DNA of 64,000 nt from NCBI GenBank assembly GCA_003482855.1, contig DMXO01000004.1, forward strand, positions 141,464 through 205,463, in the 5' to 3' direction. The DNA is from Candidatus Magasanikiibacteriota bacterium (GTDB lineage: Bacteria; Patescibacteriota; Patescibacteriia; Magasanikbacterales; UBA922). Position 1 is the first letter of the stretch. Each line of letters begins with the position of its first letter. Positions 19,707-59,464 of the stretch are shown here, in pieces. The position numbers and the translations under genes are program-made. The notes beneath the pieces were generated by a model. That model did no database searches, was not told where the DNA came from, and was given only the letters and a program-made list of their open reading frames with translations.

Positions 19707-19788
19707 GCCCAGGTGGCGAAATTGGTATACGCACTACCTTGAGGTGGTAGCGGGGAAACTCATGCGGGTTCAAATCCCGCCCTGGGCA
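19707..19788 (+). tRNA. tRNA-Leu (anticodon GAG), type II with long variable arm
   Basis: Manual fold: acceptor GCCCAGG/CCTGGGC, anticodon loop TTGAGGT, T-loop GGTTCAAATCC; CCA not encoded. Confidence 0.85.
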
Positions 19789-19800
19789 CTCTGTATATAT

Positions 19801-19831
19801 AAAAGGAATCTTGACACAAGAGTCCTTTTTT
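19801..19831 (+). terminator. Hairpin plus T-run after tRNA-Leu
   Basis: aaaaggaatcttgacacaagagtcctttttt. Confidence 0.5.
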
Positions 19832-19844
19832 GTTATAGTATGTA

Positions 19845-20232
19845 GGTTCATTTTATGGAAGATGATCGCTCCGACGTCACGTCGGAGAGGAAAGTCCGAA
19901 CTCTAATTCGCTGATGAGGCGAAGAAAGGTAGTGGATAACGTCCACCCCTCGAGCTGTGAAGTTTCGGGGCGGGAAAGCGCCACAGAGACAATACTACCC
20001 TGACGTAACGTTGGGGGAAAGGTGAAAAGTGTATAGAAGTTTTTGATCTCGAGTCAAAAGTTACTATACTCTCCGTTCCGTGAGGAATTGGAGTGGCAAG
20101 CCCTACCTGGAGAAAGAGCAGCGCGCCGATGAGGCTGCGAAAAGTTAGCTCGTTTGATCACGTAGAGTAATTTACGTGGCAGAGAAATGATCATCCTCGA
20201 CAAAATTCGGCTTATATCCATAGAATGAATTT
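19845..20232 (+). ncRNA. rnpB: RNase P RNA (bacterial type)
   Basis: Conserved blocks GAGGAAAGTCCGAAC (CR-I/P4), GGGAAAGGTGAAAAG (CR-II-like), ACAAAATTCGGCTTATA (CR-V); P1 pairing of 5' GGTTCATTTTATGG with 3' CCATAGAATGAATT; boundaries approximate. Confidence 0.8.
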
Positions 20233-30415: not shown

Positions 30416-30486
30416 TGGACCTAGGCAGAATCGGACTGCCGTCTCCGCAATGCGAATGCGACGTCATACCACTAGACCATAGGCCC
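30416..30486 (-). tRNA. tRNA-Ala (anticodon CGC)
   Basis: Manual fold: G3-U70 in acceptor GGGCCTA/TAGGTCC, anticodon loop TTCGCAT. Confidence 0.8.
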
Positions 30487-30516
30487 GAGTGGTTATAATC
30501 TCAGGATATGTGTTAG

Positions 30517-30588
30517 TGCTCCTGGAGGGAATTGAACCCCCATCAGTGGTTCCGAAGACCGCTGTGTTATCCATTACACCACAGGAGC
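30517..30588 (-). tRNA. tRNA-Arg (anticodon TCG)
   Basis: Manual fold: acceptor GCTCCTG/CAGGAGC, anticodon loop CTTCGGA, T-loop TTCAATT. Confidence 0.75.
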
Positions 30589-30594
30589 AATACG

Positions 30595-30668
30595 TGCGCC
30601 GCCTGGGAATCGAACCCAGAACCTTGGGCTTAAGAGGCCCCTGCTCTAACCAATTGAGCTAGCAGCGC
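30595..30668 (-). tRNA. tRNA-Lys (anticodon CTT)
   Basis: Manual fold: acceptor GCGCTGC/GCGGCGC, anticodon loop CTCTTAA, T-loop TTCGATT. Confidence 0.8.
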
Positions 30669-35544: not shown

Positions 35545-36393
35545 ATGTATCTCACCCCCTCTCATCTCAAACAACTCTGCCAACAATATGATCTCACGCC
35601 GAGCAAGAAGTACGGTCAGAATTATCTTATCTCGCAGGCGCCTATTGAAAAAATGCTTGATGCATCAGGTATACAGTCAGGTGACAAGGTAGTGGAGATA
35701 GGACCAGGTTTTGGTGTACTCACGTTTGCATTATTAGAACGGGGGGCAGATGTTACGGCATTTGAGATTGAAAGAAAATTGGAACCATATTGGCAAGAAA
35801 AAAAGAAAATTGAAAAATTGAGGAATTTAGAAATTATATGGGGTGATGTTTTAAAAGAAATTCGATCCCCGATTAAATCGGGGACAAAATTCGAAATTCG
35901 AAATTTTAAAGTCGTCGCCAATCTACCTTATCAAATCACTTCCCATGTTCTTCGTACATTACTCGAATTGGACCATAAGCCAGAGAGTATCACGGTCATG
36001 GTACAAAAAGAGGTAGCAGAAAGAATCGTGGCAAAACCAGGTGACATGAGCATCCTCGCTGTGTCAGTACAGTATTATGGTACCCCCCATATTGTATGCC
36101 AGGTGCCAAAGGGGAATTTTTGGCCTTCGCCAAAAGTTGATTCGGCAGTTATACATCTAGATATTCAGACAAGCAATCACGCACATACGTTTACCGATGA
36201 AGAATTTTTCAAAATAGTAAGGAGTGGGTTTGCAAATAAAAGGAAACAATTGTGGAGTAATTTATCAAAAGGTTTATTTATTGAAAAAATAAAGGTACAA
36301 AAATTTTTGGTAGAAGTATGTGGCAATGAAAAAGTGCGTGCGCAAGAGCTTTCAGTAGAGCAGTGGATAACTCTCGTAAAGAAACTCACATAA
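35545..36393 (+). CDS. rsmA: 16S rRNA (adenine1518/1519-N6)-dimethyltransferase
   Basis: GQNYLI, VVEIGPGFGVLT SAM motif, NLPYQITS. Confidence 0.88.
   Translation: MYLTPSHLKQLCQQYDLTPSKKYGQNYLISQAPIEKMLDASGIQSGDKVVEIGPGFGVLTFALLERGADVTAFEIERKLEPYWQEKKKIEKLRNLEIIWGDVLKEIRSPIKSGTKFEIRNFKVVANLPYQITSHVLRTLLELDHKPESITVMVQKEVAERIVAKPGDMSILAVSVQYYGTPHIVCQVPKGNFWPSPKVDSAVIHLDIQTSNHAHTFTDEEFFKIVRSGFANKRKQLWSNLSKGLFIEKIKVQKFLVEVCGNEKVRAQELSVEQWITLVKKLT
35858..35906 (+). repeat. In-frame mini-insertion inside rsmA: hairpin tccccgattaaatcgggga flanked by gaaattcga repeats
   Basis: gaaattcga|tccccgattaaatcgggga|caaaattcgaaattcgaaatt encodes IRSPIKSGTKFEIRNFK. Confidence 0.7.
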
Positions 36394-37152: not shown

Positions 37153-40100
37153 ATGTTTGGATTACACAATAGGACAAAAAAAAGTATTCTTGTAGTACTT
37201 ACGGCTTTATTTGTATTGAGTAATCTTTTTGTTTTTTCATTGTTACGACCTATTCCTGTATATGCACAGATCACTATAGCAGGAAGTGTACCAGATGAAA
37301 AAAAGGAAATTGTGGATCAGATTCTTGATGCTCTTATGGCAGCAGCTCTTGGTGCTCTTGTGAATGGCGCATCATATTTCATGCGTAAATTTGCATATGA
37401 TAGTGCCAAATATATTGCATCAGGTGGCAAAGGACAGGGCGCTTTGGCTTTCAAAAAAGGGTTTGGCACTTATATGAAAGATGTTGCACTGGATAGTGCA
37501 GCAAGTGCCATAGATGAGTTTGGCAGTCCATTTGGTCTCAATTTGTGTAAACCGCCAGATATTCGATTGCAGGTAAATCTTCAGGTCAGTTTAAGTAGAA
37601 TTTATGACGCAGAATCAGGTTCAGCAGGCCCGCAACCACGTTGTTCATGGAAGAGTTTTACCGAGAATTGGAGCCAAGTAGACGAAATGTATGGAAGCCG
37701 GGATGCACTCTCTGAGCGTTTTTCTGCGTCTCTGAGTGTTACTGAGGGTGATTTTGGTACAGCGCTTGGGCTCATGGGCAAAGTAGATAGAATCAAGGCA
37801 CAAGCAGAAGCGGGAGCCACAGCTGAACGCAATGAAGGCGATGGTTTCAAGTCAGTACAAAATTATATATCTGGTGATATACAGACACCAGCCCAAGTTA
37901 TCAAAAAAGAAACAGATGCTGTAACAGGTGGCAAACAGATGGATTTGAGCGCCAATCAAATCGCCGGCATATATGGTGCTGGTGCATGGCAGATATTACC
38001 TATGGCAGCATCTGTTTTTGCCAATACGCTTGTTTCTACACTCTTGCAAAATGTCATGACCAACGGGCTTTTCCCTAGTTCAAAAGGAGGTGGCTCTGTA
38101 GTTGATTTTTATGCGGCAAATATCAATTACAACAGGCAAGCTGCTGAACGCGCGTTTTCGTATCTCATTGCAGGAGTGCCACAACATGATATTACCGCGT
38201 TTGATATTATTACTGAATTTAGTTCGTGCCCTGATACACCAAAGACATATAATTGTGTGATGGATCAGGGATTGGTACAGGCATTACAGCGTGAACGTGC
38301 CAATGAGACGCTCACTATTGGTGAGGCTCGTGTTATCGATGGGGGACTCATTCATGAAAATTGGCAGCTCATTCCACCAAGCCGCGACGTGGATAATTCT
38401 AATATTGATTGTTACAAAAATGCATATTGTTATTCAAATATACAAAAACTCAGAAAGGCGCGTATATTGCCACTCGGTTTTGAAATAGCAACCATGCGCT
38501 CAGACCCTGATAAGCCATGGACATTGGGTGCTGTACTCGATGGGTTTGGCGATCCCAATAGTCCATATTATCATCTCATTGACCCAAATTGGATTCTCAA
38601 AGCACCGCAGGCTCAATGTGAGATGACGGTGGATGGTCCTCAGCTTTTGTCAGAAAATACGCCAACAAGACAAGATGAATGTGCTGATTTTTCTACATGT
38701 CTTGCCGAAGGAGATGATGACAAGTGTATTGATTATGGATATTGTACTCAAGAGAAAAATGTATGGCATATACCGGGCGAAAGTTGTCCAGATTATTACA
38801 ACACGTGCAAGACATATACAAGCAATGACGGCGTTATTGCGTCATACTTGTCTCGCACTTTGGATTTTGGCACATGCAATGTCGAAGCAGTCGGGTGTCG
38901 TGCCTATAGTACAGAGATGACAGGGGATTTCTGGTTGCGCAGTAGTCAAGTTGATCTTGATCTCAAAGAGAGCGGTCGTGAACAGGTACTGTATTTCAAT
39001 AGTCAGATTGGAAGTTATACATGTCCGGTTGAAGAAGATGGCTGTAGTGAATTCACTCCCGCATCTTCTACCAAACCGCTTTATCTCCAAAAAGCGCCAG
39101 AATATTTAGGTTGTTATGATACTGACCCAGATACGCAAGATGTCATTGATTGGCCCCAGACCAAAGCAGATCTCGTGCTTCTTGCCAACACCCCACAAGC
39201 ATGCAACAAATACGCGAGTGTATGTATTCCTGAAGAAGTGGGATGTGAGGAATATAACCCAGTAAATGGCGGTACGACAATCAATGGAGTCGTAGGCAAT
39301 AATTTTTGTAGTTCACAATGTGTTGGATATGAAACATTCAAGCAAGAAGAGACGCCATTTGAACCAAACAAATTTCCATTATATTTTATTCCATCTCATG
39401 GTGATGTATGTGCTTCTCAATATGAAGGTTGTGATGAATTCACCAATATCAGCGGAGGAAACGCTGCAGAAAAGCTTGAGTATTACAGTGATCTCAAATA
39501 TTGCGAAAAGCCGGATGGCACCAATGACAAGACATATTATTCATGGGAAGGCTCGGAGAGCCAAGGTTATGTTTTGAAAAAACATGTATTATTGCAAGTT
39601 GATCAAAGTGAATTTACCAACTATTTGAGTGGGATTACCTTAGTATTGAGCGATGGCACATCACTCGGCGCTGGCAGTGTATTTACTGTTGGTTCGCCAG
39701 CATATTCAGTAGATACGCCAGAGCAGCTCGCGACTAAATACGAAAAATGTAATCAGGATGCATACAATCTCATGCTCGACGACCCATATGCGGATGGCGC
39801 TGCAATAGGTGGACCTGAAGGGTGTCATGCATTGTATGATAGCAGTGGTGAGATATATTATCGTTTTTTGATTGATACTATTTCAGTATCAAATGAGTGT
39901 GCTCCATTGCGCAAAACTAATTCCGATCTGTTTGTAGATTCTCATTTGAGTGGAGCAGGCAGACAGAGCCAGTGCGAAGCAAAAGGTGGTTCATGGGATA
40001 GTGCAAATAGCCAGTGTAACAGATGTTATAATGGCGGGTTTTACCAAAAAGATGATATCACAGGAGTTGGCGCTTGTGTGTATTGGTCCATACCAAGTGA

Positions 40101-43100
40101 AGCTGTATCTTGCCCGTCGAGTGCCAATCTGTGTCGTAGATATATAGGCAATACAGGTAGCAATGTATACAACATATATGATACAAGTTTTGAACCTGGA
40201 CAAAATGCGTCAACTACACTAGCCCTAGCAAAAGAAGGATGGACAGGCGTAGTATCTATTGAACCAGAGGCAACACATGTAGGTCAATATTCGCTCAAAG
40301 TAGGGGGCAATGGCAATACATCGTATGATTTTGCACCAGAAGTTTTGAGAAATAATGCATGGTATGAACTTAGTTTCTGGGCGCGTGGTAATCCACAAAC
40401 GCTTTCATTGCAAATTAATCAGGTAGGAGGTAGTCCTGCCATATTCACATATGATCCTCTCACCGGACAGAATGTATATGCGCCCATTACCACAGATTGG
40501 CAAGAATATACACTTGGTCCAATCCAGTTCACTGGTTCTTCTGGCGCGACTACTACATTAGAATTTATTCGACAAACAGGAAGTGGTGTATATTTCATAG
40601 ATCATGTCGTACTCAAACGTATTGGCGGGAATCCCGAGGACTATGTATTCCGTATCAAAGATTCATGGAAAACAGACGAAGGGTATGATGTGCCTGATGT
40701 GTGCGATTCTACACCGCTTGATGCATTTCCTGGCGAACAACTTGGGTGTCGTGCCTATACGACGCGCGCCACTCCGCCAGACAATATTGTCGCATTTACT
40801 GGATTTGAACGTCTATGTCGCGCTCAGGCAGTCGGATGTACACCGGTCGTGGATACTCAAAATATAGAGCGTGATGATACAGATGTGCACACAGCTTATA
40901 ACCTTTTATGTAAAGACGGATTGGCAACTGCTGCCATGGGTAATGCAAAAGATAAATGTTCAGTTTCTGTGGACAGCAAAAGTTATGAATGCGCGTATGA
41001 AAAAGGGGAAAGCAGTTGTTTTATTACTGGTCCTATACATATACCAGATGCGGAGATGACCAATCTCAATGTAGTTGATCTGGTCGATCGTTTGCATGTG
41101 GTCACATCTACTATCATGGTACCTCCAAACTCAGATACCCTGTATCTCGCGCATCGCACTGAGTTTGTATGCAGTAGCGAACATGTCGGATGTCAGAAGA
41201 TGGGACTTGAAGAACGGCTATTGCCAGATGAGAGTAGTGGTGCATATGCATATAGCCAAAAAGCATATATCAATAGTGCAGATCATTATGATGCGACATT
41301 GTGTACCCAAGAGCAGGTGGGGTGTAAAGAATACAAAAATAATGACGTGATTAGCTTTTTCAAAGATCCAAAGCTTGCTGGTGCAGGATTGTGCGTGTAC
41401 AAGCAAAATGTATCTGTAGGTGGTGTCACGCGTAATGGTTGGTTCATGGATGGCGTGGGCATGTGCAGTACTGGCGATCTGTGCAAGAATGATGAAGATT
41501 GTGGTGGACAGACGTGCAATGATATTGGACTGCAACCATGTTATAACGATTATATATTGCCGGGCAGCACCTATGGTCTATGGTCCAATGCAACTCCTAA
41601 TTATGAAGGATATGTAGGTACCTGCAGTAGTGAATACAATGGTTGTACTGAGCTTCTCGACCCCGCAGACACATCAGGTGGTGTTCAGCCAGATGGCAAA
41701 CCATATTATGTAGTGTTTGATGATAGACTGTTTGCCAAGACGGGCGACTGTGACAGCAAAGTAAGCCAAAAAGAAGGATGCGTACTTTTTGATCGTACTG
41801 AAAATCCAAATAAATATTTTAATTCTGCAGCTACGTATGCTGATAGTATTGCACAAGCGTATGCGCTCGTACCCACATTATCAACAGGTGATCTCGATAC
41901 CAATGAACTCATAAAAGTGGAGCGTGATCGTGAATGTAGTGAATGGCTCGCATGTCGTACTGCGACTCGCGTATTTGATACGCGTGGCAAGCCACAACAG
42001 CTTTGTCAGGAATACAGAGCATGCGATGAGATGGACGCGAGCGGCAACTGCACACACTGGGTTCGCACTGAGTACGACAACGAACGGCTCACCCACGAGA
42101 AGTATACATCTCGTACTGTAGGCTGGAGCAATCCAGATTATTCAGGTTATTCATTGTACAACAAATATAATATAAGCAATTTTGTTTATATTATATTCAG
42201 CAATGATATATTGAGAAAAGAAGGATCCGTTGATTTGGGTGTCGCGTATATTGCATACGAGATGGATCGCAAGATGTTTGTCTCTCCTGAAAATCTTGAA
42301 TCAGGTGAACAGAGACTTGAGGAGAAAGGTTGTTTTGAAGTTGTGAATAGCACGCCGGTAAAAGAAGAAGGGGCAGTATGTGGATTTGATAATGGTGGCA
42401 GGTGTTATCGCCAGAGATGCTTGTATCCTATAGATGGTGTGTTTGAGACCCAGCCAGCTGCATCTGCGCAAATACCAGACAAAGACGCGCGCGAGGCAGA
42501 AAACATCAAGCGCATACTTTCTGAACTAGAACATGGTATTTGCAAATCATATCCTGAACCAGACAGCCCATTTTCTGTGAATGCCACAGTTGCAGATGTA
42601 GATTCTGAGCGTGATGTCAAAAGTGATGACCCCGTAACCAAAACTCGCTATGAGTATTCTATGCGCTATCCTCAGTTTGAGCGCGCAAATATTTGCCAGG
42701 GCGGAGAAAATAGTCCGGACTGTTCATGTGATTATATCAAAATAGAATACAAAAATGGCACTATAGACTACTGGTCTACAACACAACAGGGGCAGTTTGC
42801 TGATGGCATATGTATTACAGCAGGAGAATTGGATGGCCAGCCGTGCGTCGTGAGCGAGGAGTGCAAAGGTGAAGATCCTTTGAGCGCTGGCGAATGCAGC
42901 AAGATAGCGCGCCAAGGTACGTATTACGGTCTCAAAGGGCTATGTCTTGAGTATGACAAGAGCCGTCCGCTTACGCCATCCAAAAATGTATCAAGCGATG
43001 CAGACAGATACCCCTGTCTTACTTGGTTGCCGATACAGACATCTGCCTCTGCAGGAGATCTCTACAACGCAGATGTGAAAGCAGGCTACTGGCCTGATGA

Positions 43101-46100
43101 AAATCTTGATGCCACAACGGGCGGCTTGTCCTATTGTCTCGAGAGTACAAGCTATGGAAGAGGATATTATGACACAGATTATACGACATTTACCGGCCCG
43201 CCCCTCACCGCTGTTTCAGGTATACATAATCTATCATTATTTAGTGCTACCAATTATGAGTTGGGTGGAGAATGTACTGCAGAAAATATAGCGTCATGCC
43301 CTACTGATAGCAATTGCATTGAGTCGTGTATAAATGAGTATTGTGATAATGAAGATTGTTCAAGCGGTATCGTGAATAGTGTTTCAACCGAATTGAGTGC
43401 ATTTAAAACAGAATTTGGCGCATGCGCAAATCAAGAGTGCGAAGCAAATGAGTTGGCAGAGTATGCAGTTCAAATTAGAGGTATATTTGATAGTAATGTT
43501 ACAGTTACCAGCTCAGAAGAGATTGCTACCTGTACACAGGGTTGTGCCCCAGTCCCTTCGTGTGTCAGTGGTTTTTGTGGTGAGACAGTTTCAGAATCAA
43601 AAACATATAGTAACATCTTTAATATAAATGATGATCTTTATAGTACTCCGGATGTGGATGTTCCATTTACCAATGAGTGGTGTAATAACGTTGATCCAAT
43701 TTCAGGAGATTGTATGGACGGGGGTGGTTGGAAACATTCCTATAATGTTCATATAAGCAGTTGTTATTCTGTAAGTAGCTTTAGTGTTGCTGAAAATTTT
43801 TTCTCCTTTGGTGTCGCTGGCCAAGGAGAAACTAAGTATTCAAGTTATACTCGGCTTATGAAGACTGACGACCCCGGCGATGTATTGTACAAGACAATGC
43901 AGTCATGGGCATGGAAAAATTTGGGTACCAATACGCGCATACTTCGTATTGATGAAAAAGGTGGTTGTTTCCCTAAGTACTTCGAGGAGTATGACGATAC
44001 AGACAGCCTACCTGAACCAGCCAAGAATGAGGATAATGTGTATGCTGTACATTCATTTGCTCCGGGCATAGACAACGGAGGCCCAGGCGATACAGGCACG
44101 CTCATGCATCCGCCACGTCGTTGGACTTCAGAATATGGGAACTATGCAGATGGTACAAGCTATAATTATTTCATGAATCCGTATATAGATACTCAGACTG
44201 ACTTTAAAATTGCAGAGACGAGCTCACTCTCACCAGATATCGATCCAAGCGCAAACCCATATATATATGTAGATACTGATGTTGAGCGTAAGCTCAATGA
44301 ATATGATATTGATAAAATATATTTCATACCGCTCTCATATCCAGATGGCGCAGAGGGACCAAACCCATCAATACTTACACCAAACTTTTCTATTAGTTTC
44401 AATGCTTTGCGCGCCAAGACACAACCCAAAGACAGATTTATTTTGGGTGATTTGGAAGAGGTTGGTGAAAATAATTTTATAGATTTTACTGAATCAATAC
44501 CTGAAGCGGGAGGGATGACCAATTACCAATACATGCTTGAACAAAAACCTGGCGCTACCAATGAATTACTTTCGTATGAGACATATAATGGCAGTATCGA
44601 CGACCCAACCTCTCGCGATGAGGTCAAGCGCCGCTATGTGGCTCTTGCATACAACAATCAAGGAGTCGAAGATAATAGAACAGAACACCCTTTCATTTTC
44701 CGTCAAGAAAATACACTTACCACATTTCCTGATGCTACGCACGATCCTTTCACTACTGCGTGTACGCATCATGACAACAATAACTGGATAGCCATAGGTC
44801 TTGACTTCAATGAAGATGGTGAATTCCTGGGATATATATCGCGTTGGTGCAATGGTGAAAATAATGATGATGGTGAACGAAATGGCATTAGATTCGCTGT
44901 CATAGCAGAGCTCAATGACAGGTGTACTGAGCTTGCCTCAGTCGTAGACAACACCGTATTGTCGAGTCTTATTACTGAGGATTACAACAAAGCATGGACC
45001 AATAGAGTATGGGCAAATGCATCGCAAAATTTCCCAGGATCCGGTTTTGGTGAGCTCAAACGCACAGAAGAGACAGATGTGGTTGGTCTCACTCCGTTTG
45101 GTTCGCTCGAAGGAGACAAAGTAAATAAGTCAAAGATTATAGGCTTTAATTCTTTACCAGTTTTGCAAAAAATATATCTTACGTATTATCTTCTTCCTGA
45201 TACCAAGCTCGGTGTGCCATACGCATGCACAGGCGGGTCTGTGTTTGATGGTTCGGGCGAACCTATATTTTCTGCATCAGGCTTTGGGTGCATAGGCATG
45301 GGAGACACTATCAATACCAATACGACGCTGACAAGCCAGGTATCTTCGCACACGTCTGGCAATGCGAATACGTTTCTTCGTAGCTTGTTCAAGAAATATT
45401 ATGCAGTATTTGATAGCGTCGCAAAGACAGATTCAGGCGCAGTAGACGATAGTAATAATATTGGAGACACCAAGCCTCCACAGGTGTTTGCACTCAATCC
45501 ATATACGTGTACGACTGCAGGCAAAGATTGTGTCGCGACGTTTGAGAATGCTTTCACAGTAAATAATAGAAACTATGTGGCAGGCGAGGCAGCGGATTAT
45601 GATGATAATGATGTGCTTGATGATGAAGATAAAAATTATAATGAGAGTCCGGATCCTATCATGGCAGACGGCAACATGCTTGCGACGGTGCAATTTTTTG
45701 GCTATGCAGACGACAACCGCATGCCGATACGTAGAGTCATGGTAGACTGGGGAGACGGCGAGCCTATTACCAATAATGAAGTGTACGGCATGTACAAAAA
45801 TAGAAAGCCGTATTGTAGTGCGGATGAAGTAATGGGTAGATGTTCTAGCGGTTCTGATTGGTCGCCGAGCAGTGATCCCTATCAGATTACTTGCAAGGAA
45901 GATGCTGATTGCGCATTTTTACTGCGTAGTACCAAGTGTGGCCAGATAAAGGATAATACTCTATATTTTGGCGACGCATCACGCGCATGCAAAGATACGT
46001 ACTTCGAGTTTAGTCATGAATATTTCTGTGATCTGGCTGATCTTACTGATCCACGAGGCGATGGCAGGCAGATCGTGTCTCTAGCTGAAATAAAAAACAA

Positions 46101-46428
46101 CAAAGATGGCAATGATAACGACCTGTTCGAAGATCTAGACTATGCACAGGAAGTATATGAACGTTTGTCTGAACGTGATCTCGCGCATATAGAAGAGGAT
46201 GACCAGAAACCGGCAGTGTGTATATTCAAGCCTCGTGTTCAGATACTCGACAACTGGAGATGGTGTAATGGGACGTGTAGTGGAGTGAGTGGGTGTTATT
46301 CAGATGGTTCTATAGATAAATGTGATCCAAATTTTGATGATAAAGGTAATACTTTTTATCCCTGGACAGAATATAAGGGTGCTATTGTGGTAATTCCTTC
46401 AGCGGGTACAGAAGAAGAGACTGATTAG
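37153..46428 (+). CDS. Giant (3091 aa) secreted cysteine-rich extracellular protein
   Basis: Signal peptide cleavage-like VYA-QI; well over 100 Cys; repeated E-x-V-G-C-x-x-Y module; acidic D-rich stretch; PKD-like WGDGEP near C-terminus; uninterrupted 9.3-kb ORF. Confidence 0.8.
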   Translation: MFGLHNRTKKSILVVLTALFVLSNLFVFSLLRPIPVYAQITIAGSVPDEKKEIVDQILDALMAAALGALVNGASYFMRKFAYDSAKYIASGGKGQGALAFKKGFGTYMKDVALDSAASAIDEFGSPFGLNLCKPPDIRLQVNLQVSLSRIYDAESGSAGPQPRCSWKSFTENWSQVDEMYGSRDALSERFSASLSVTEGDFGTALGLMGKVDRIKAQAEAGATAERNEGDGFKSVQNYISGDIQTPAQVIKKETDAVTGGKQMDLSANQIAGIYGAGAWQILPMAASVFANTLVSTLLQNVMTNGLFPSSKGGGSVVDFYAANINYNRQAAERAFSYLIAGVPQHDITAFDIITEFSSCPDTPKTYNCVMDQGLVQALQRERANETLTIGEARVIDGGLIHENWQLIPPSRDVDNSNIDCYKNAYCYSNIQKLRKARILPLGFEIATMRSDPDKPWTLGAVLDGFGDPNSPYYHLIDPNWILKAPQAQCEMTVDGPQLLSENTPTRQDECADFSTCLAEGDDDKCIDYGYCTQEKNVWHIPGESCPDYYNTCKTYTSNDGVIASYLSRTLDFGTCNVEAVGCRAYSTEMTGDFWLRSSQVDLDLKESGREQVLYFNSQIGSYTCPVEEDGCSEFTPASSTKPLYLQKAPEYLGCYDTDPDTQDVIDWPQTKADLVLLANTPQACNKYASVCIPEEVGCEEYNPVNGGTTINGVVGNNFCSSQCVGYETFKQEETPFEPNKFPLYFIPSHGDVCASQYEGCDEFTNISGGNAAEKLEYYSDLKYCEKPDGTNDKTYYSWEGSESQGYVLKKHVLLQVDQSEFTNYLSGITLVLSDGTSLGAGSVFTVGSPAYSVDTPEQLATKYEKCNQDAYNLMLDDPYADGAAIGGPEGCHALYDSSGEIYYRFLIDTISVSNECAPLRKTNSDLFVDSHLSGAGRQSQCEAKGGSWDSANSQCNRCYNGGFYQKDDITGVGACVYWSIPSEAVSCPSSANLCRRYIGNTGSNVYNIYDTSFEPGQNASTTLALAKEGWTGVVSIEPEATHVGQYSLKVGGNGNTSYDFAPEVLRNNAWYELSFWARGNPQTLSLQINQVGGSPAIFTYDPLTGQNVYAPITTDWQEYTLGPIQFTGSSGATTTLEFIRQTGSGVYFIDHVVLKRIGGNPEDYVFRIKDSWKTDEGYDVPDVCDSTPLDAFPGEQLGCRAYTTRATPPDNIVAFTGFERLCRAQAVGCTPVVDTQNIERDDTDVHTAYNLLCKDGLATAAMGNAKDKCSVSVDSKSYECAYEKGESSCFITGPIHIPDAEMTNLNVVDLVDRLHVVTSTIMVPPNSDTLYLAHRTEFVCSSEHVGCQKMGLEERLLPDESSGAYAYSQKAYINSADHYDATLCTQEQVGCKEYKNNDVISFFKDPKLAGAGLCVYKQNVSVGGVTRNGWFMDGVGMCSTGDLCKNDEDCGGQTCNDIGLQPCYNDYILPGSTYGLWSNATPNYEGYVGTCSSEYNGCTELLDPADTSGGVQPDGKPYYVVFDDRLFAKTGDCDSKVSQKEGCVLFDRTENPNKYFNSAATYADSIAQAYALVPTLSTGDLDTNELIKVERDRECSEWLACRTATRVFDTRGKPQQLCQEYRACDEMDASGNCTHWVRTEYDNERLTHEKYTSRTVGWSNPDYSGYSLYNKYNISNFVYIIFSNDILRKEGSVDLGVAYIAYEMDRKMFVSPENLESGEQRLEEKGCFEVVNSTPVKEEGAVCGFDNGGRCYRQRCLYPIDGVFETQPAASAQIPDKDAREAENIKRILSELEHGICKSYPEPDSPFSVNATVADVDSERDVKSDDPVTKTRYEYSMRYPQFERANICQGGENSPDCSCDYIKIEYKNGTIDYWSTTQQGQFADGICITAGELDGQPCVVSEECKGEDPLSAGECSKIARQGTYYGLKGLCLEYDKSRPLTPSKNVSSDADRYPCLTWLPIQTSASAGDLYNADVKAGYWPDENLDATTGGLSYCLESTSYGRGYYDTDYTTFTGPPLTAVSGIHNLSLFSATNYELGGECTAENIASCPTDSNCIESCINEYCDNEDCSSGIVNSVSTELSAFKTEFGACANQECEANELAEYAVQIRGIFDSNVTVTSSEEIATCTQGCAPVPSCVSGFCGETVSESKTYSNIFNINDDLYSTPDVDVPFTNEWCNNVDPISGDCMDGGGWKHSYNVHISSCYSVSSFSVAENFFSFGVAGQGETKYSSYTRLMKTDDPGDVLYKTMQSWAWKNLGTNTRILRIDEKGGCFPKYFEEYDDTDSLPEPAKNEDNVYAVHSFAPGIDNGGPGDTGTLMHPPRRWTSEYGNYADGTSYNYFMNPYIDTQTDFKIAETSSLSPDIDPSANPYIYVDTDVERKLNEYDIDKIYFIPLSYPDGAEGPNPSILTPNFSISFNALRAKTQPKDRFILGDLEEVGENNFIDFTESIPEAGGMTNYQYMLEQKPGATNELLSYETYNGSIDDPTSRDEVKRRYVALAYNNQGVEDNRTEHPFIFRQENTLTTFPDATHDPFTTACTHHDNNNWIAIGLDFNEDGEFLGYISRWCNGENNDDGERNGIRFAVIAELNDRCTELASVVDNTVLSSLITEDYNKAWTNRVWANASQNFPGSGFGELKRTEETDVVGLTPFGSLEGDKVNKSKIIGFNSLPVLQKIYLTYYLLPDTKLGVPYACTGGSVFDGSGEPIFSASGFGCIGMGDTINTNTTLTSQVSSHTSGNANTFLRSLFKKYYAVFDSVAKTDSGAVDDSNNIGDTKPPQVFALNPYTCTTAGKDCVATFENAFTVNNRNYVAGEAADYDDNDVLDDEDKNYNESPDPIMADGNMLATVQFFGYADDNRMPIRRVMVDWGDGEPITNNEVYGMYKNRKPYCSADEVMGRCSSGSDWSPSSDPYQITCKEDADCAFLLRSTKCGQIKDNTLYFGDASRACKDTYFEFSHEYFCDLADLTDPRGDGRQIVSLAEIKNNKDGNDNDLFEDLDYAQEVYERLSERDLAHIEEDDQKPAVCIFKPRVQILDNWRWCNGTCSGVSGCYSDGSIDKCDPNFDDKGNTFYPWTEYKGAIVVIPSAGTEEETD

Positions 46429-46557: not shown

Positions 46558-46588
46558 CCTGTACACATAAGTATTTGTGTACACAGGG
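46558..46588. repeat. Imperfect inverted repeat at boundary of GC-rich island
   Basis: cctgtacacataagtatttgtgtacacaggg. Confidence 0.6.
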
Positions 46589-46657
46589 ATTCTGCTCGCG
46601 GGCGCGCATGACTATGAGCTTCATCCCCCTCGATTGCCCCCGAGGATAGGGTGCCCG

Positions 46658-47176
46658 TCACTCGACGCGGACGAAGTGGATGGGCTCGGACGTGCTGTCG
46701 CCGAAGTCGACGTACTGGATCATCCGTCCTTCGGTGTCGAGGTCGACGACCCCGGTGACCCCGTCCTCCTCGATTCTCTCGAGCGGCACGGTCTCGCCGA
46801 TGAACACCCCGCGGAGGAGGGAGGGCTGCCCAGTGATCTCCACCTGGCACGTGCCCACCTCGAGAGGTGTCATGTTGACGACCACCTTGGCGTCCGACGC
46901 GGAATCTTCCCGCTTCCAGGTGGCGAAGAGGCTCGCCACGTGTTCGCAGGAGGTCCCGGTGAGGTCCTTGGGGTCGTCGATCGGCTCGACCGCGGTGTCC
47001 AGCGTGGACGGCGTCTCGGCGTCGGCCTCGACCGCGGTGTCCAGCGTGGACGGCGTCTCGGCGTCGGCCTCGGGCGTGATCTGCGGGGGAGCGTCCCCCG
47101 CGCCGGCGGCCTCACAGCCACTGAAGATGAACAGAGCCGCCGCCACGATGGCGGCGAGGAGCAGGTTGTACCGCAT
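46658..47176 (-). CDS. Lipoprotein with high-GC codon usage and 14-aa tandem duplication
   Basis: MRYNLLLAAIVAAALFIFSGC lipobox signal; GGAGG SD 5 nt upstream; GC3 about 75 percent; EADAETPSTLDTAV x2. Confidence 0.6.
   Translation of the reverse strand: MRYNLLLAAIVAAALFIFSGCEAAGAGDAPPQITPEADAETPSTLDTAVEADAETPSTLDTAVEPIDDPKDLTGTSCEHVASLFATWKREDSASDAKVVVNMTPLEVGTCQVEITGQPSLLRGVFIGETVPLERIEEDGVTGVVDLDTEGRMIQYVDFGDSTSEPIHFVRVE
46985..47068. repeat. Perfect 42-bp tandem duplication (x2)
   Basis: gaccgcggtgtccagcgtggacggcgtctcggcgtcggcctc repeated head-to-tail. Confidence 0.9.
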
Positions 47177-47224
47177 GGGTACCTCCTATGCCGCGCCCCG
47201 AGCCATCGGGGCGGTCGAAACGGT

Positions 47225-47470
47225 TGAAGCACTTGCGCGCGCCAGTCAGTAGAGTAGTTGTATAGTCTACTTGCTAGCGCGCGCAAAGTTTGTATATTTG
47301 CGCACCCGCGAGAGTTTATGCCACGTAAAATCACTTTGTGATCACGTGGCGAGCGAGTCTCTTATTCTAGCTATCAATAACAGACTCACGAAACCATCGC
47401 GTTTCCCGACTCAGTCGGGATACGTGATTGGAAAGAGCATCCACACGCCACTGGCGTATAGAATAGACAA
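47225..47470. repeat. Cluster of REP-like palindromes upstream of RAYT gene
   Basis: cttgcgcgcgc...gcgcgcgcaaag around caGTAGagtag...ctact; cccgactcagtcggg; acgccactggcgt; ccacgt..acgtgg. Confidence 0.5.
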
Positions 47471-47691
47471 AAAGCTTGAAGCTAATTATCCACTCTAATT
47501 AGACCACATTTTGGTCAAAAAGTCAAGGTCAAGACCGTAAACGTGGATAGGGTGTGGATATCTCTTTTTGGCTGTTCGAGCTATTCGGGTTATCTAGGCC
47601 ATCTGAGTTTTGTGAAATCAACAAAAGAAAAAATGGTAAATTTTATCTAAAATATGCTGTTTTCCAATCTAAACATGGTATAATAATCTAT

Positions 47692-48285
47692 ATGTATAGG
47701 AGGTATACTAGGAAAAGAAATCGTTTATTTGGTTTTGATTATAGAAACAGACGGTATTATTTTATTACCATATGTACAGAGGATAAGATGTCATTTTTTG
47801 GTGGTGTGTACAATGGAATTATGTGTGTGAACCGTTTGGGTTCGGTCATATATCGTCAATGGGAATGGTTGGAACAACAATATAATTACATACGGTTGTA
47901 TGGGTTTGTCGTAATGCCAAATCATGTGCATGGGATATTGGAAATCGTTGGACCGGAATCCGTAGGGACAGGTCGCGATCGTGGTATTCAAACGAATGTT
48001 GATAATGAAATGAACCGTGTAGGGACAGGTCTAGACCTGTCCCTACACGCGCCCGGTTCATGCAAAATATTATCATTATCACATATTATTGGTGCATTCA
48101 AAACAACGTCATCGAAACGTATCCACGAAATTGGGTTTTCACCATTCAAATGGCAACGGTCATTTTATGATAATATTATTCGAGACAAAATTGCATTTCA
48201 TAATATACAACGATATATTATAAATAACCCGCCGATGTGGCATCGTGACCGGAATAATCGCCTTGATTTTTATACCACAAATTGA
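47692..48285 (+). mobile_element. IS200/IS605-family HUH tyrosine transposase, RAYT-like (CDS)
   Basis: YYFITICTEDK ... MPNHVHGILEI (HUH) ... FKWQRSFYDNIIRD (catalytic Tyr region); about 35-aa GC-rich insertion after HUH; listed ORF from 47554 begins with non-homologous GTG-initiated upstream extension. Confidence 0.65.
47961..48058 (+). repeat. GTAG-headed GC-rich palindrome inside RAYT coding sequence
   Basis: gtagggacaggtc ... gtagggacaggtctagacctgtccctac (28-bp perfect palindrome). Confidence 0.85.
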
Positions 48286-48317
48286 TACAATGCATACGTT
48301 AATTTAGCAAAATATAT

Positions 48318-50084
48318 ATGTCTTATCGAACACATACGTGTGGAGAATTAACCAAAAAACATGTCAGCAAGCAGGTCATCTTGTCTGGCTGGGTGCATAG
48401 ACGCCGCAATCTCGGTGGTCTTATTTTTATTGATCTTCGCGATAGGTATGGTATGACCCAGGTCATATTCAATCCAGATGTCACACACAATTATGATATC
48501 GCAGAAAAGCTCAAGTATGAGTATGTGGTGAGCGTAAAAGGGAACGTAGAAAGTAGAAAGAAAGAAAATATCAATTCTGATTTGGCAACAGGAGAAATCG
48601 AGGTCATTGCGCAGGAAGTAGAGATATTGAGTGAAGCAAAGACATTACCATTTGAGATTTTTGACGCACACAAAGAAGCAGAAGACGAAGAATTGCGTCT
48701 CAAGTATCGATATTTAGAATTGCGTCGAGAAAAATTGCGTGACAATATCTTATTTCGCGCGCAGGTCGTGAAGTATATTCGTACCTATATGGAGGAGCGA
48801 GGATTTATTGATATTGCTACGCCGATTCTCACCGTGAGTTCGCCCGAGGGTGCACGCGATTTTTTGGTACCTTCACGATTGCATCCAGGCAAATTTTATG
48901 CACTGCCACAAGCACCACAACAATACAAGCAATTACTCATGGTCGCGGGGTTTGATAAGTACTACCAGATAGCGCCATGTATGCGTGATGAAGATGCACG
49001 CGCAGACCGCAGTCCTGGTGAATTTTATCAGCTTGACTGTGAAACAAGCTTTCTTACTCAGGATGAATTTTTTGATCTCATGGAACCTCTCTTTGTTGAA
49101 TTGACCGAGAAAGTAGCAAACAAAAAAGTATGGAAAAAACCATTTCCACGTATTCCTTTTAGACAAATCATGGAAGACTATGGTAGTGACCGACCGGATT
49201 TGCGTTATGATTTGAAGTTGGCTGATGTGAGTACATGGGCGCATGGAACTGATTTCAATGTATTCAAACAAGCAGAGTACGTGCGCATGCTTGTCGTACC
49301 TCAGGGGGATACATTTACACGCAAAGAAATTGATGACGAGTTCACCGACAAAGCAAAGCGCGCCGGAGCAAAAGGATTGGCATGGATGAAGTATGCGGAT
49401 GGGAAGTTTGAGGGCGGAGTGAGTAAATTTTTTGACGAAAAAAAGCTATCTGAGCTTTCTCAGCTGGCTAAGCTATCTAAGAATTCAATATTGTTTTTTG
49501 CTGCGGACACATGGGATGTTTCGTGCAAGGTTTTGGGTGGAGTACGTGAACTTGCAGCTCAGAAATTAAATTTGATTGATGAGAATGTTATCGCTTGGGC
49601 GTGGGTAGTAGATTTTCCAATGTATGAATTCAACGCAGAAACGAGCAAAGTGGACTTCGGACATAATCCATTCTCTATGCCACAAGGTGGTATGGAAGCA
49701 CTTGAAACCAGAGATCCTTTGGAAATTCTCGCATATCAATATGATATCATTGCCAATGGGTTTGAGCTGTCATCTGGTGCTGTGCGCAACAAAGATCCAA
49801 AAATTATGTACAAAGCGTTTGAAATAGCTGGGTATACAAAAGAGGATGTAGATGCCAAGTTTCATCACATGATCGATGCATTTGAATATGGCGCGCCTCC
49901 TCACTGTGGATTTGCACCCGGTATTGAACGTCTTACTATGGTTCTCAAAGGTGAGAAAAATATCCGTGCGGTTGTTCCATTCCCCAAAAATCAAAAAGCA
50001 GAAGAACCGATGATGGGGAGTCCGGCAGAGGTAGACAAGAAACAGCTTGATGAGTTGGGATTGAAGATCGTTGAGAAAAAATAG
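48318..50084 (+). CDS. aspS: Aspartate--tRNA ligase
   Basis: OB-fold N-terminus, CMRDEDARADRSPGEFYQLDCETSF motif 2, GAD insertion, GFAPGIERL motif 3, 588 aa. Confidence 0.92.
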   Translation: MSYRTHTCGELTKKHVSKQVILSGWVHRRRNLGGLIFIDLRDRYGMTQVIFNPDVTHNYDIAEKLKYEYVVSVKGNVESRKKENINSDLATGEIEVIAQEVEILSEAKTLPFEIFDAHKEAEDEELRLKYRYLELRREKLRDNILFRAQVVKYIRTYMEERGFIDIATPILTVSSPEGARDFLVPSRLHPGKFYALPQAPQQYKQLLMVAGFDKYYQIAPCMRDEDARADRSPGEFYQLDCETSFLTQDEFFDLMEPLFVELTEKVANKKVWKKPFPRIPFRQIMEDYGSDRPDLRYDLKLADVSTWAHGTDFNVFKQAEYVRMLVVPQGDTFTRKEIDDEFTDKAKRAGAKGLAWMKYADGKFEGGVSKFFDEKKLSELSQLAKLSKNSILFFAADTWDVSCKVLGGVRELAAQKLNLIDENVIAWAWVVDFPMYEFNAETSKVDFGHNPFSMPQGGMEALETRDPLEILAYQYDIIANGFELSSGAVRNKDPKIMYKAFEIAGYTKEDVDAKFHHMIDAFEYGAPPHCGFAPGIERLTMVLKGEKNIRAVVPFPKNQKAEEPMMGSPAEVDKKQLDELGLKIVEKK

Positions 50085-59382: not shown

Positions 59383-59464
59383 TGCCCGAGGAGAGAATCG
59401 AACTCTCACTCCGTGAGGAACACGATTTTGAGTCGTGCGCGTCTACCAATTCCGCCACTCGGGC
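59383..59464 (-). tRNA. tRNA-Leu (anticodon CAA), type II
   Basis: Manual fold: acceptor GCCCGAG/CTCGGGC, anticodon stem CACGA/TCGTG with loop CTCAAAA, long variable arm. Confidence 0.85.

What the first reader, a model, noticed from the sequence alone, without database searches (positions are those of the whole stretch)
47225..48285. RAYT/IS200-like HUH transposase carrying an in-frame GTAG-headed palindrome, with REP-like palindromes upstream
The transposase ORF has host-like AT-rich composition and an intact HUH motif (HVHGIL) and catalytic Tyr region (RSFYDNII). Between them lies an insertion of about 100 bp and 60 percent GC. It contains a 28-bp perfect palindrome, GTAGGGACAGGTCTAGACCTGTCCCTAC, plus a second GTAGGGACAGGTC copy, and it is translated in-frame (VGTGRDRG...NRVGTGLDLSLHA). 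REP elements recognised by RAYTs characteristically begin with GTAG. Having such an element inside the RAYT gene itself, plus further GTAG-containing palindromes 250 to 450 bp upstream, is unusual. It may mark self-targeting, a mini-intein-like insertion or an inactivating event.
Basis: partly seen in the sequence, partly recalled or inferred. Interest (0 to 1): 0.6.

Follow-up and report, generated by a model that had tools for sequence, protein, structure and literature searches.

The report
REP palindrome inside its RAYT gene
An intact REP-associated tyrosine transposase (RAYT) gene in a Candidatus Magasanikbacteria genome carries a copy of its own target DNA hairpin, translated in frame in a surface loop; this is real, but it was described in 2018 as the hallmark of this gene subclass, so it is an ordinary new example.

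Summary
The core observation holds. Window 47692-48285 (+) encodes an intact 197-aa Y1 HUH protein. Between its HUH and Tyr motifs lie a perfect palindrome (28 nt at 48019-48046, 34 nt with flanks at 48016-48049) and a solo left arm (47962-47978), both read in frame.

It is not unusual. The protein meets the published signature of TnpA_REP/RAYT subclass 2.4 (NH[IFV]H, WQ, YIxNNP, about 194 aa). Quentin et al. 2018 (PMC6006769) define that subclass by 'double-foot' GTAG...CTAC REPs inserted in frame between HuH and Y. Their Table S1 lists nearly the same REP.

I confirmed this independently. Of 80 homologous loci fetched by the HUH peptide alone, 65 carry a GT[AG]G-footed hairpin in that linker. 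The N-terminal coding part gave 0 of 80, and shuffled linkers 2.3 of 80. Stems covary while GTAG stays invariant, and the TAG-stop frame is never used. The CG-centred 28-mer is dispersed in about ten phyla.

Corrections:
- The catalytic Tyr is Y175 (RYIINNP), not RSFYDNII.
- The insert is 51-53% GC, not 60%.
- The upstream palindromes are single-copy, unrelated and not REP-like.
- No other REP copy exists in the 64 kb.

Intein and inactivation readings are not supported. Verdict: new member of a known kind.

The parts
47692..48285 (+). tnpA_REP / RAYT gene, subclass 2.4 (197 aa plus stop), intact
   Evidence: ORF. 100% identical to P0001, Candidatus Magasanikbacteria. Pfam Y1_Tnp 24.8 bits against a cutoff of 23. 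NCBIfam REP_Tyr_transpos 49 bits, below its cutoff of 80. The only PDB sequence hit is 4ER8 TnpA_REP. AF2 model pLDDT 86. Foldseek hits are IS608/ISDra2 TnpA and 4ER8, the latter with TMq 0.51 and rmsd 3.2.
47920..47931 (+). HuH motif NHVH (aa 77-80)
   Evidence: H78 and H80 are invariant in 44 homologues. Matches the subclass 2.4 signature NH[IFV]H. Coordinates.
47947..48066 (+). Linker encoding aa 86-125: a variable, predicted-disordered loop between the HUH strand and the next helix (beta3/alphaC loop)
   Evidence: pLDDT is 49-56 with no secondary structure between strand 78-85 and helix 129-146. Length is hypervariable among homologues, 16 to more than 160 aa. GC is 0.51-0.53 against 0.33-0.35 for the rest of the gene.
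47962..47978 (.). Solo left arm of the REP (GTAGGGACAGGTCGCGA, with the consensus CGCG centre), translated VGTGRD
   Evidence: Solo and tandem half-arms are common in homologues (P0025, P0048, P0060; L033, L104, L116).
48019..48046 (.). Complete 'double-foot' REP, GTAG-GGACAGGTC-TA-GACCTGTCC-CTAC, fully self-complementary, translated VGTGLDLSL in frame 0
   Evidence: It is the only GT[AG]G-footed hairpin with a stem of 7 or more that has this sequence in the 64-kb window. The CG-centred version occurs in at least 120 stretches of public genomes. Almost the same REP is listed for a subclass 2.4 gene in Table S1 of PMC6006769.
48016..48049 (.). Extended 34-nt perfect palindrome (the REP plus a 3-bp complementary flank, CGT/ACG)
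   Evidence: (repeat I2). Flank-extended copies are enriched among dispersed REPs: 19 of 124 have 3 bp or more, against 3.1 expected.
48151..48183 (+). W motif and helix WQRSFYDNIIR (aa 154-164), the counterpart of the E. coli TnpA_REP GTAG-guide-binding residues W94, Q95, W99, E100, H101, R104
   Evidence: Profile alignment to 4ER8. Residue list from the Figure S11 legend of PMC6006769. W, Q and R are identical; W99 becomes Y, E100 becomes D, and H101 becomes N here (H in most homologues).
48214..48231 (+). Y motif YIINNP (aa 175-180): catalytic Tyr Y175, with N179 at +4
   Evidence: Aligns to E. coli Y115 and N119. Y175 and N179 are invariant and P180 nearly invariant among 44 homologues. 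Matches the subclass 2.4 signature YIxNNP.

Best explanation
The gene at 47692-48285 encodes an intact REP-associated tyrosine transposase. It belongs to TnpA_REP subclass 2.4 of Quentin et al. 2018, which equals RAYT group 4 of Bertels et al. 2017. This is a domesticated Y1 HUH enzyme that binds, cuts and rejoins single-stranded DNA at REP hairpins carrying a GTAG guide at their foot.

The segment coding for its beta3/alphaC surface loop contains one full 'double-foot' REP of its own family and one solo REP arm.

Inferred mechanism:
1. REPs are deposited close to, and occasionally inside, the gene by the enzyme's own single-strand cleavage and ligation.
2. Copies survive only where they land in a permissive disordered loop, and only in one of the two reading frames that avoid the TAG stop inside GTAG.
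3. Once there, they are translated as filler peptide: VGTG(R/L)DLSL in frame 0, or RDRSRPVPT in frame 1.
4. The palindrome is kept at the DNA level, by selection on the hairpin or by homogenisation with other copies. The peptide itself is not what is conserved.
5. Hairpin-prone DNA also generates solo or tandem half-arms, which explains the hypervariable linker.

Shown here: family membership, location in a disordered loop, DNA-level conservation with covarying stems, frame bias, and dispersal of the same REP in other genomes. Inferred: how the REP got there, and that it is a tolerated passenger rather than a working part.
For: Membership:
- NHVH, WQ and YIINNP motifs, 197 aa, no C-terminal tail.
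- 4ER8 TnpA_REP is the only PDB sequence hit, with HUH and Y aligned.
- Y1 transposase fold.

Known hallmark:
- PMC6006769 states that subclass 2.4 has double-foot REPs, and REPs inserted in frame between HuH and Y in a peripheral loop.
- Its Table S1 lists GTAGGGACAGGTCGTGACCTGTCC for ADQ78812.1.

Independent test with 80 loci fetched with the peptide [VI]MPNHxHG[IV] only:
- 65 have a GT[AG]G-footed hairpin in the linker. The N-terminal coding part gave 0 of 80, and shuffled linkers 2.3 of 80.
- 24 of the loci also have a near-identical REP outside the gene in the same locus.

DNA-level rather than peptide-level conservation:
- The same palindrome is read in two frames (VGTGRDLSL in about 100 and RDRSRPVPT in 14 of 265 homologues).
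- Frame counts are 48: 17: 1, and the single hit in the stop frame has a GTGG foot, which lacks the stop.
- VGTGRDLSL is always encoded by the REP codons, with 0-1 nt difference, in loci chosen by protein.
- Stems covary: all 9 of 9 stem pairs show double changes, with GTAG invariant. Peptides change in a compensatory way, for example T/S to A/P in VGAGRDLPL, and T/L to N/R in VGNGRDRSL.

Loop location: pLDDT 49-56 and no secondary structure for aa 86-125.

REP status of the 28-mer:
- At least 120 stretches in about ten phyla, with up to 8 or more copies in one genome.
- 108 of 127 copies lie outside RAYT genes and have unrelated flanks.
- The copies are enriched outside long ORFs.
Against: - No extragenic copy of the REP occurs in this 64-kb window, or within about 2-4 kb of the two closest relatives' genes. 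Repetitiveness in this genome is therefore not shown. The flanking-REP feature reported for most subclass 2.4 genes is absent here.
- NCBIfam's REP_Tyr_transpos model scores below its cutoff (49 against 80).
- The identity of the 28-mer across lineages whose proteins are only 45-60% identical is stronger than a neutral passenger would predict. This hints at a function for the internal copy, or at continual re-seeding.
- The hairpins used for the covariation count were pre-selected as hairpins, so the 95% pairing figure is circular. Only the diversity of stems is informative.
- No enzymatic activity was tested.
Confidence: 0.85

Rival explanations
1. The internal REP is a functional cis element rather than a tolerated passenger. 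It could be a linked 'master copy' that keeps enzyme and substrate together through loss or horizontal transfer. Or it could be an autoregulatory site, where TnpA_REP binds its own gene's single-stranded DNA, or where the mRNA hairpin throttles translation or decay.
For: - The 28-mer is near-identical in genes whose proteins are only 45-60% identical.
- An internal REP is present in 81% of sampled family members at the same loop.
- In this window and in the two closest relatives it is the only copy in the neighbourhood.
- The hairpin is very stable (-17.9 kcal/mol as DNA).
Against: - Some family members have no linker REP: 15 of 80 loci, and proteins such as P0112, P0244 and P0204 with minimal linkers.
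- Copy number, frame and position within the loop vary freely.
- P0002 carries a synonymous change that breaks one pair.
- Nothing was tested at the RNA or protein level.
Confidence: 0.2
2. The conserved feature is the peptide (VGTGRDLSL) as a functional protein motif, and the DNA palindrome is an accidental consequence of its codons.
For: The peptide is the majority consensus at this site in close homologues.
Against: - The same DNA is read in a second frame as an unrelated peptide, RDRSRPVPT.
- The codons are identical despite about 660,000 possible synonymous encodings (my arithmetic), across genomes of different GC content.
- The same 28-mer occurs over 100 times outside such genes.
- Amino-acid changes come in base-pair-compensating pairs.
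- The segment is predicted disordered.
Confidence: 0.02
3. The palindrome marks an inactivating insertion, so the gene is a decaying pseudogene.
For: The 28-nt unit is not a multiple of 3. REPs do interrupt other genes (PMC3733652; the kinase in L073).
Against: - The reading frame is open over 197 aa, with the HUH, W and Y motifs and the N-terminal block intact.
- The AF2 core is confident.
- The identical protein is found in 7 contigs, shown at 4 places from separate assemblies.
- The same architecture is found family-wide.
Confidence: 0.03
4. The insert is a mini-intein or another self-excising protein or RNA element.
For: It is a discrete insert of different composition between two catalytic motifs.
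Against: - The insert is about 35 aa, far too short.
- There are no intein blocks and no Cys/Ser...His-Asn junctions on direct reading.
- Pfam finds only Y1_Tnp, and Rfam finds nothing.
- Homologues vary from 0 to several REP units.
Confidence: 0.01
5. The locus is an autonomous IS200/IS605-type insertion sequence, and the upstream hairpins are its subterminal end structures.
For: There are three stable hairpins 260-460 nt upstream, and the fold resembles IS608 and ISDra2 TnpA.
Against: - The motifs are NHVH and YIINNP, not DH[VI]H and Y[IV]ENQ.
- There is no matching structure downstream: only 32 nt separate the stop codon from the next gene, which encodes a tRNA-synt_2/GAD-domain (aspartyl-tRNA-synthetase-type) protein.
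- There is no tnpB.
- The gene and the hairpins are single-copy in the window and absent from all related loci.
Confidence: 0.03

Closest known systems
TnpA_REP subclass 2.4 with intragenic REPs (Quentin, Siguier, Chandler, Fichant 2018, BMC Genomics 19:475, PMC6006769); equals RAYT group 4 of Bertels et al. 2017 (PMC5581495)
   Same: - Motifs NH[IFV]H, WQ and YIxNNP; about 194 aa; no C-terminal tail.
- Hypervariable beta3/alphaC insertion made of short DNA repeats.
- 'Double-foot' REP (5' GTAG, 3' CTAC) inserted in frame between HuH and Y.
- Scattered distribution across phyla.
- Almost the same REP sequence is in their Table S1.
   Different: - The host is a Candidatus Magasanikbacteria (Patescibacteria/CPR) genome, a group not named in their taxonomic summary.
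- No flanking REP lies within 1 kb or more here, whereas they report flanking REPs for the large majority.
- The REP centre is CTAG rather than CGCG or CGTG.
E. coli TnpA_REP / RAYT (YafM; PDB 4ER8; subclass 2.2)
   Same: - Y1 HUH fold, with HUH, catalytic Tyr and Asn at +4 aligned.
- Most GTAG-guide-contacting residues are conserved.
- The substrate is a GTAG-footed hairpin.
   Different: - About 13% identity.
- The E. coli enzyme has DHLH and YIHYNP motifs, a C-terminal extension, and bulged long REPs that flank the gene rather than interrupt it.
Intragenic GTAG/CGTC REPs and rickettsial palindromic elements (Di Nocera et al. 2013, PMC3733652)
   Same: Short palindromic repeats inserted in frame into protein-coding genes, translated and apparently tolerated. 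A comparable case seen here is the same REP in frame in a Ser/Thr-kinase-like gene.
   Different: In those cases the hosts are unrelated housekeeping genes at varying sites. Here the host is the REP's own cognate enzyme gene, at one conserved loop across the family.
IS200/IS605 TnpA (IS608, ISDra2)
   Same: Same fold and chemistry, with recognition of DNA hairpins on single strands.
   Different: Different motif signatures. The gene is not flanked by left-end and right-end hairpins, is not multicopy, and has no tnpB.

Membership tests
TnpA_REP/RAYT subclass 2.4 (Quentin 2018) | HuH motif NH[IFV]H | tested here: met
   NHVH at aa 77-80. H78 and H80 are invariant in homologues. Signature.
TnpA_REP/RAYT subclass 2.4 (Quentin 2018) | W motif WQ | tested here: met
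   W154-Q155. W154 is invariant and Q155 at least 90% conserved. Aligns to E. coli W94-Q95.
TnpA_REP/RAYT subclass 2.4 (Quentin 2018) | Y motif YIxNNP | tested here: met
   YIINNP at aa 175-180. Y175 aligns to E. coli Y115.
TnpA_REP/RAYT subclass 2.4 (Quentin 2018) | Median length about 194 aa, with no C-terminal tail domain | tested here: met
   197 aa. The protein ends 17 aa after the Y motif.
TnpA_REP/RAYT subclass 2.4 (Quentin 2018) | Variable-length insertion between beta3 and alphaC | tested here: met
   The linker is 53 aa here and ranges from 16 to more than 160 aa in homologues. It is a disordered loop between strand 78-85 and helix 129-146.
TnpA_REP/RAYT subclass 2.4 (Quentin 2018) | REP (long or double-foot, GT[AG]G ... 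C[TC]AC) inserted in frame within the gene between HuH and Y | tested here: met
   The REP at 48019-48046 and the half REP at 47962-47978 are both in frame 0.
TnpA_REP/RAYT subclass 2.4 (Quentin 2018) | Canonical REPs within about 1000 nt flanking the gene (reported for the large majority) | tested here: not met
   There is no other GT[AG]G-footed hairpin of this type anywhere in the 64 kb. The upstream hairpins are unrelated. This is a frequent but not universal feature.
TnpA_REP/RAYT subclass 2.4 (Quentin 2018) | 8-aa insertion at the end of alphaB | not tested
   No structural alignment to a subclass 2.4 reference was made.
TnpA_REP/RAYT (general) | Y1 HUH fold related to 4ER8 | tested here: met
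   Foldseek against 4er8_A gives E 6e-5, TMq 0.51 and rmsd 3.2. IS608 and ISDra2 TnpA are also hit. The only PDB sequence hit is 4ER8.
TnpA_REP/RAYT (general) | NCBIfam NF047646 REP_Tyr_transpos at or above its cutoff | tested here: not met
   49.4 bits against a cutoff of 80. I infer that the equivalog model is centred on other subclasses. Pfam Y1_Tnp passes (24.8 against 23).
TnpA_REP/RAYT (general) | Binds and cleaves its cognate REP as single-stranded DNA | not testable with these tools
   Needs biochemistry.
REP (repetitive extragenic palindrome), GTAG type | A 20-40 nt palindrome that forms a stable hairpin with a 5' GT[AG]G foot | tested here: met
REP (repetitive extragenic palindrome), GTAG type | Many dispersed copies in the same genome | tested here: inconclusive
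   There are 1.5 copies in this 64-kb window, both inside the gene. The rest of the genome was not available. In other genomes the same 28-mer is multicopy, for example at least 8 in isolate 138114a6 and at least 6 in Nitrospinota SB0662_bin_51.
REP (repetitive extragenic palindrome), GTAG type | Extragenic location | tested here: not met
   This copy is intragenic. Elsewhere, most copies lie outside long ORFs.
IS200/IS605 transposase (subclass 1.1) | DH[VI]H and Y[IV]ENQ motifs; subterminal hairpins at both ends; multicopy | tested here: not met
   The motifs are NHVH and YIINNP. There is no downstream structure, and the unit is single-copy.
Intein / mini-intein | About 130 aa or more with splicing blocks, a nucleophile at the N-junction, and His-Asn plus Cys/Ser/Thr at the C-junction | tested here: not met
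   The insert is about 35 aa. None of these features appear on direct reading, and Pfam gives only Y1_Tnp.

The most novel reading that the evidence does not exclude
In reduced Patescibacteria genomes such as this one, the gene-internal REP may be the only copy of the element. That would make a self-contained one-gene 'REPtron', in which the enzyme carries its own substrate in its coding sequence. The internal hairpin would then be a functional, selected cis element, either a linked seed copy or an autoregulatory site on DNA or mRNA. This would explain why an identical 28-mer persists in genes whose proteins have diverged to 45-60% identity across about ten phyla.
Probability: 0.15. Interest if true: 0.6.

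Novelty: new member of a known kind. Interest (0 to 1): 0.3.

Why it matters
It matters little for discovery. The architecture was described in 2018, and this is a further example in a candidate-phyla-radiation genome.

It is useful in three practical ways:
1. Annotation pipelines call these genes 'hypothetical' (P0001) because the REP-encoded filler splits the Y1_Tnp domain. Recognising the VGTGRDLSL and RDRSRPVPT peptides as translated REPs fixes that.
2. The family gives an unusually clean natural example of DNA-hairpin selection overriding codon choice inside a coding region.
3. Cross-phylum identity of one 28-nt REP, together with cognate internal and external copies, offers a handle on the still-open question of what RAYTs do and how REPs spread.

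Tried and rejected
- **Rfam.** The whole window at gathering threshold, and 47150-48350 at E up to 1, gave nothing for the REP or the upstream hairpins.
- **Upstream hairpins as REPs, TIRs or IS ends.** Rejected. They are single-copy, have no GT[AG]G foot, and show no similarity to the rest of the window or to any fetched locus.
- **Half-site at 27845 (2 mismatches).** It has no palindromic partner, so it is a chance match.
- **Phage carriage.** Only 4 matches in 2.9 million viral contigs, none next to a RAYT gene.
- **Assembly chimera as the source of the adjacent GC-rich island.** Rejected. The island is present at 99.7-100% identity in three assemblies; whether they are independent samples was not checked.
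- **Homologues of the island's ORF.** None found other than the sequence itself.
- **Literature search for the exact 13-mer or the peptide.** No relevant paper in main texts. The near-identical REP was found only in a supplementary table.
- **Structure with the insert deleted.** Not run, because engineered sequences are not accepted by the tool.
Full report
**What is in the sequence**

The ORF containing the finding runs 47554-48285 (+). Homologues and the identical database protein P0001 ('hypothetical protein', Candidatus Magasanikbacteria) start at ATG 47692, giving 197 aa.

- GTAGGGACAGGTCTAGACCTGTCCCTAC lies at 48019-48046.
- Its CGT/ACG flanks extend it to a 34-nt perfect palindrome at 48016-48049.
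- A second GTAGGGACAGGTC starts at 47962. It continues as ...GCGA, so it matches 17 nt of a left arm plus centre.
- Both copies begin on a codon boundary and are read as VGTGRDR... and VGTGLDLSL.

The 13-mer gives 4 matches at up to 2 mismatches in the window, against 0.42 expected. Three are exact and lie in the gene. The fourth, at 27845, has no partner arm and looks like chance. As single-stranded DNA the hairpin folds at -17.9 kcal/mol, z = -7.3.

Two details needed correction. The linker is 51-53% GC (the REP itself 59%), against 33-35% for the rest of the gene, not 60%. 'RSFYDNII' is not the catalytic tyrosine region.

**What the protein is**

- Pfam gives Y1_Tnp just above its cutoff. 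NCBIfam REP_Tyr_transpos scores below its cutoff.
- A profile of 44 homologues hits only one solved structure by sequence: E. coli TnpA_REP, 4ER8. MPNHVHGI aligns to LPEHMHCI, WQRSFYDHIIR to W94-R104, and eYIkeNP to D-Y115-I-Y-I-N119-P.
- The catalytic Tyr is therefore Y175 in RYIINNP, with N179 at +4. WQRSFYDNIIR is the counterpart of the helix that contacts the GTAG guide in E. coli (residue list). W, Q and R are identical.
- An AlphaFold model (pLDDT 86) has a confident core. It matches IS608 and ISDra2 TnpA, and 4ER8 with TMq 0.51 and rmsd 3.2.
- Residues about 86-125, the REP-encoded stretch, have pLDDT 49-56 and no secondary structure. They lie between the HUH strand (78-85) and the next helix (129-146).

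**The segment is shared by homologues, but as DNA rather than as protein**

In 44 aligned homologues the consensus at this site is VGTGRDLSL. That peptide back-translates to the palindrome GTAGGGACAGGTCGCGACCTGTCCCTAC.

Across 265 homologues the linker varies from 16 to more than 160 aa and is built from REP-derived peptides:
- VGTG(R/L)DLSL-like peptides in 100 proteins.
- The same DNA read one base over, as RDRSRPVPT, in 14.
- Tandem half-arms such as (VGTGRDAAS)x3.
- Variants whose amino-acid changes are base-pair compensating: VGAGRDLPL, VGNGRDRSL, VGDGRDRPL, RGGSRTAPT, CRDNPRIVPT.

In loci chosen by protein similarity, VGTGRDLSL is encoded by the REP codons with 0-1 nt difference. Close relatives show the same. 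P0003 carries the exact consensus 28-mer. P0002 differs by one synonymous change.

**An unbiased family sample**

I fetched 80 metagenome loci using only the N-terminal domain. The scan pattern was [VI]MPNHxHG[IV].

- 65 of 80 have a GT[AG]G-footed hairpin in the linker. The equally long N-terminal coding part gave 0 of 80, and shuffled linkers 2.3 of 80.
- Frame usage of the foot is 48 (GTA GGG): 17 (xGT AGG): 1. The single case in the third frame has a GTGG foot, which lacks the TAG stop.
- In 24 loci a near-identical hairpin also lies outside the gene in the same short contig. The internal copy is therefore the cognate of the local REP.
- Across 42 distinct internal hairpins GTAG is invariant, and all 9 stem pairs show double compensatory changes. 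These hairpins were pre-selected as hairpins, so the 95% pairing figure is circular. The diversity of stems is the informative part.

**The palindrome as a dispersed element**

By record title these span roughly ten phylum-level groups: Patescibacteria, Bacteroidota, Nitrospinota, Fibrobacter, Spirochaetia, Gammaproteobacteria, Calditrichia, Ignavibacteria, Aminicenantes, Desulfuromonadaceae and Zixiibacteriota. They include cultured Segetibacter, Pontibacter and Xanthomarina. MAG binning errors are possible.

- Several genomes hold many copies.
- Only 19 of 127 copies lie in or next to a RAYT-like gene. The rest have unrelated flanks.
- Dispersed copies sit in much shorter open frames than random positions: median 130 against 381 codons.

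This is REP-like behaviour, with a minority of intragenic copies.

**This is already known**

Quentin, Siguier, Chandler and Fichant (2018; PMC6006769) define TnpA_REP subclass 2.4, which equals Bertels' RAYT group 4. Its features are:
- motifs NH[IFV]H, WQ and YIxNNP, and a median length of 194 aa;
- a hypervariable beta3/alphaC insertion made of short DNA repeats;
- 'long' and 'double-foot' REPs (5' GT[AG]G plus 3' C[TC]AC).

They also describe 'a remarkable and unique feature': REPs inserted within the tnpA_REP gene, between HuH and Y, without disrupting the frame, in a peripheral loop. Their Table S1 lists GTAGGGACAGGTCGTGACCTGTCC for a subclass 2.4 gene, ADQ78812.1.

The window protein meets every sequence criterion: NHVH, WQ, YIINNP and 197 aa. 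Di Nocera et al. 2013 (PMC3733652) had already described translated intragenic GTAG REPs in other genes.

**How this instance differs**

- The host is a Candidatus Magasanikbacteria (CPR) genome.
- The REP centre is CTAG instead of CGCG. This variant appears in homologues whose following helix reads LSLS(N/H)I(I/V)GAFK (P0004, P0008, P0009, P0028, P0038 and others).
- There is no flanking or other REP copy anywhere in the 64 kb, nor near the genes of the two closest relatives. Another Magasanikbacteria genome (L009) does have a flanking copy 30 nt upstream of the start codon.
- The genomic context differs among the three close relatives, so the gene is not syntenic.

**The upstream palindromes**

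They are single-copy, unrelated to the REP and to each other, lack a GT[AG]G foot, and have no Rfam match. They occur in no related locus. They are not part of the REP system as far as can be told.

**Mechanism**

Established knowledge (4ER8 and the cited papers) is that TnpA_REP binds REP hairpins on single-stranded DNA through a GTAG guide, and cleaves and rejoins them.

Shown here:
- membership of the subclass;
- location of the REP in a disordered loop;
- DNA-level conservation with covariation;
- exclusion of the stop frame;
- cognate internal and external copies in other loci.

Inferred:
- REPs land in or near the gene through the enzyme's own activity.
- They survive only in the permissive loop and in open frames.
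- They are translated as filler peptide.
- They generate half-arm duplications through hairpin-prone replication or repair.

I cannot exclude that the internal copy has a cis function, as a linked seed copy or in autoregulation. The near-identity of the 28-mer in genes whose proteins are only 45-60% identical is the main hint in that direction.

The intein, pseudogene, IS200 and peptide-motif readings are each contradicted by specific tests (see the rival explanations).

**Verdict**

The interpretation as something unusual is not supported. This is a new member of a known kind, of modest interest.

Noticed in passing
window 46577-47230 (ORF 46658-47176, minus strand): A 68% GC island sits in a 39% GC genome. 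It encodes a 172-aa lipoprotein-like protein (signal peptide plus Cys, with a strong AGGAGG site before the ATG). It contains a 42-nt tandem repeat at 46974-47057. The island is bounded by small inverted repeats at 46559-46590 and 47233-47286. It is present at 99.7-100% identity in three assemblies, so it is not a chimera. No homologue other than itself was found in 5.8 billion proteins.
   Followed up: partly
window 47233-47286, about 47320-47350, about 47394-47430: Three stable, single-copy hairpins (z from -4.2 to -5.6) lie in the 460-nt spacer between the GC island and the RAYT gene. They have no Rfam match and no similarity to anything else fetched. Their function is unknown.
   Followed up: partly
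L206 and L207 (window 46985 and 47393): Two assemblies of the same organism have contig ends inside the tandem repeat and at the third hairpin. This suggests assembly-breaking structure or population variation just upstream of the RAYT gene.
   Followed up: no
L005 1856-1883 and L073 5785-5812: The same 28-nt REP sits in frame at the homologous position of a Ser/Thr-kinase-like gene, just after ...AMEY(I/V)EG.TLK..., in a Patescibacteria MAG and an Aminicenantes MAG. L073 shows a downstream frameshift that may be a long-read indel.
   Followed up: partly
L001-L120 (for example L080 5006, L092 143, L110 3070, L036 2599): A subset of dispersed REP copies lie at the exact centre of a longer perfect palindrome made of otherwise unrelated flanks. 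19 of 124 have 3 bp or more against 3.1 expected, and 9 have 5 bp or more against 0.43 expected. Some look like terminator stems with a T-run. This suggests insertion into hairpin loops or palindrome growth. The window copy has a 3-bp extension.
   Followed up: partly
L127 2376-2425 and 2670-2719: One homologue carries two internal REPs, each embedded in a 50-nt perfect palindrome. The extra 11-nt arms differ between the two copies by compensating changes (CCG/CGG against CAG/CTG).
   Followed up: no
L033 230-320, L104 5320-5395, L116 1368-1440, L079 1320-1410: Tandem arrays of REP half-arms (left arms only or right arms only) lie next to a complete REP. This matches the repeated VGTGRD or DLSL peptides in many homologues.
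   Followed up: no
window 37153-46428 (+): A giant 3091-aa ORF, Cys-rich with an N-terminal signal or transmembrane segment, lies immediately upstream of the GC island.
   Followed up: no
window 9713-9739 and 35886-35906: The palindromic repeat (TTCGAAA)n occurs at two separate places in the window.
   Followed up: no
window 19707-20230, 30416-30668, 59383-59464: RNase P RNA (class A) lies next to a tRNA. There is also a cluster of three tRNAs and one further tRNA.
   Followed up: no
L208-L211: The REP 28-mer occurs in only 4 of 2.9 million viral contigs, none of them beside a RAYT-like gene.
   Followed up: yes
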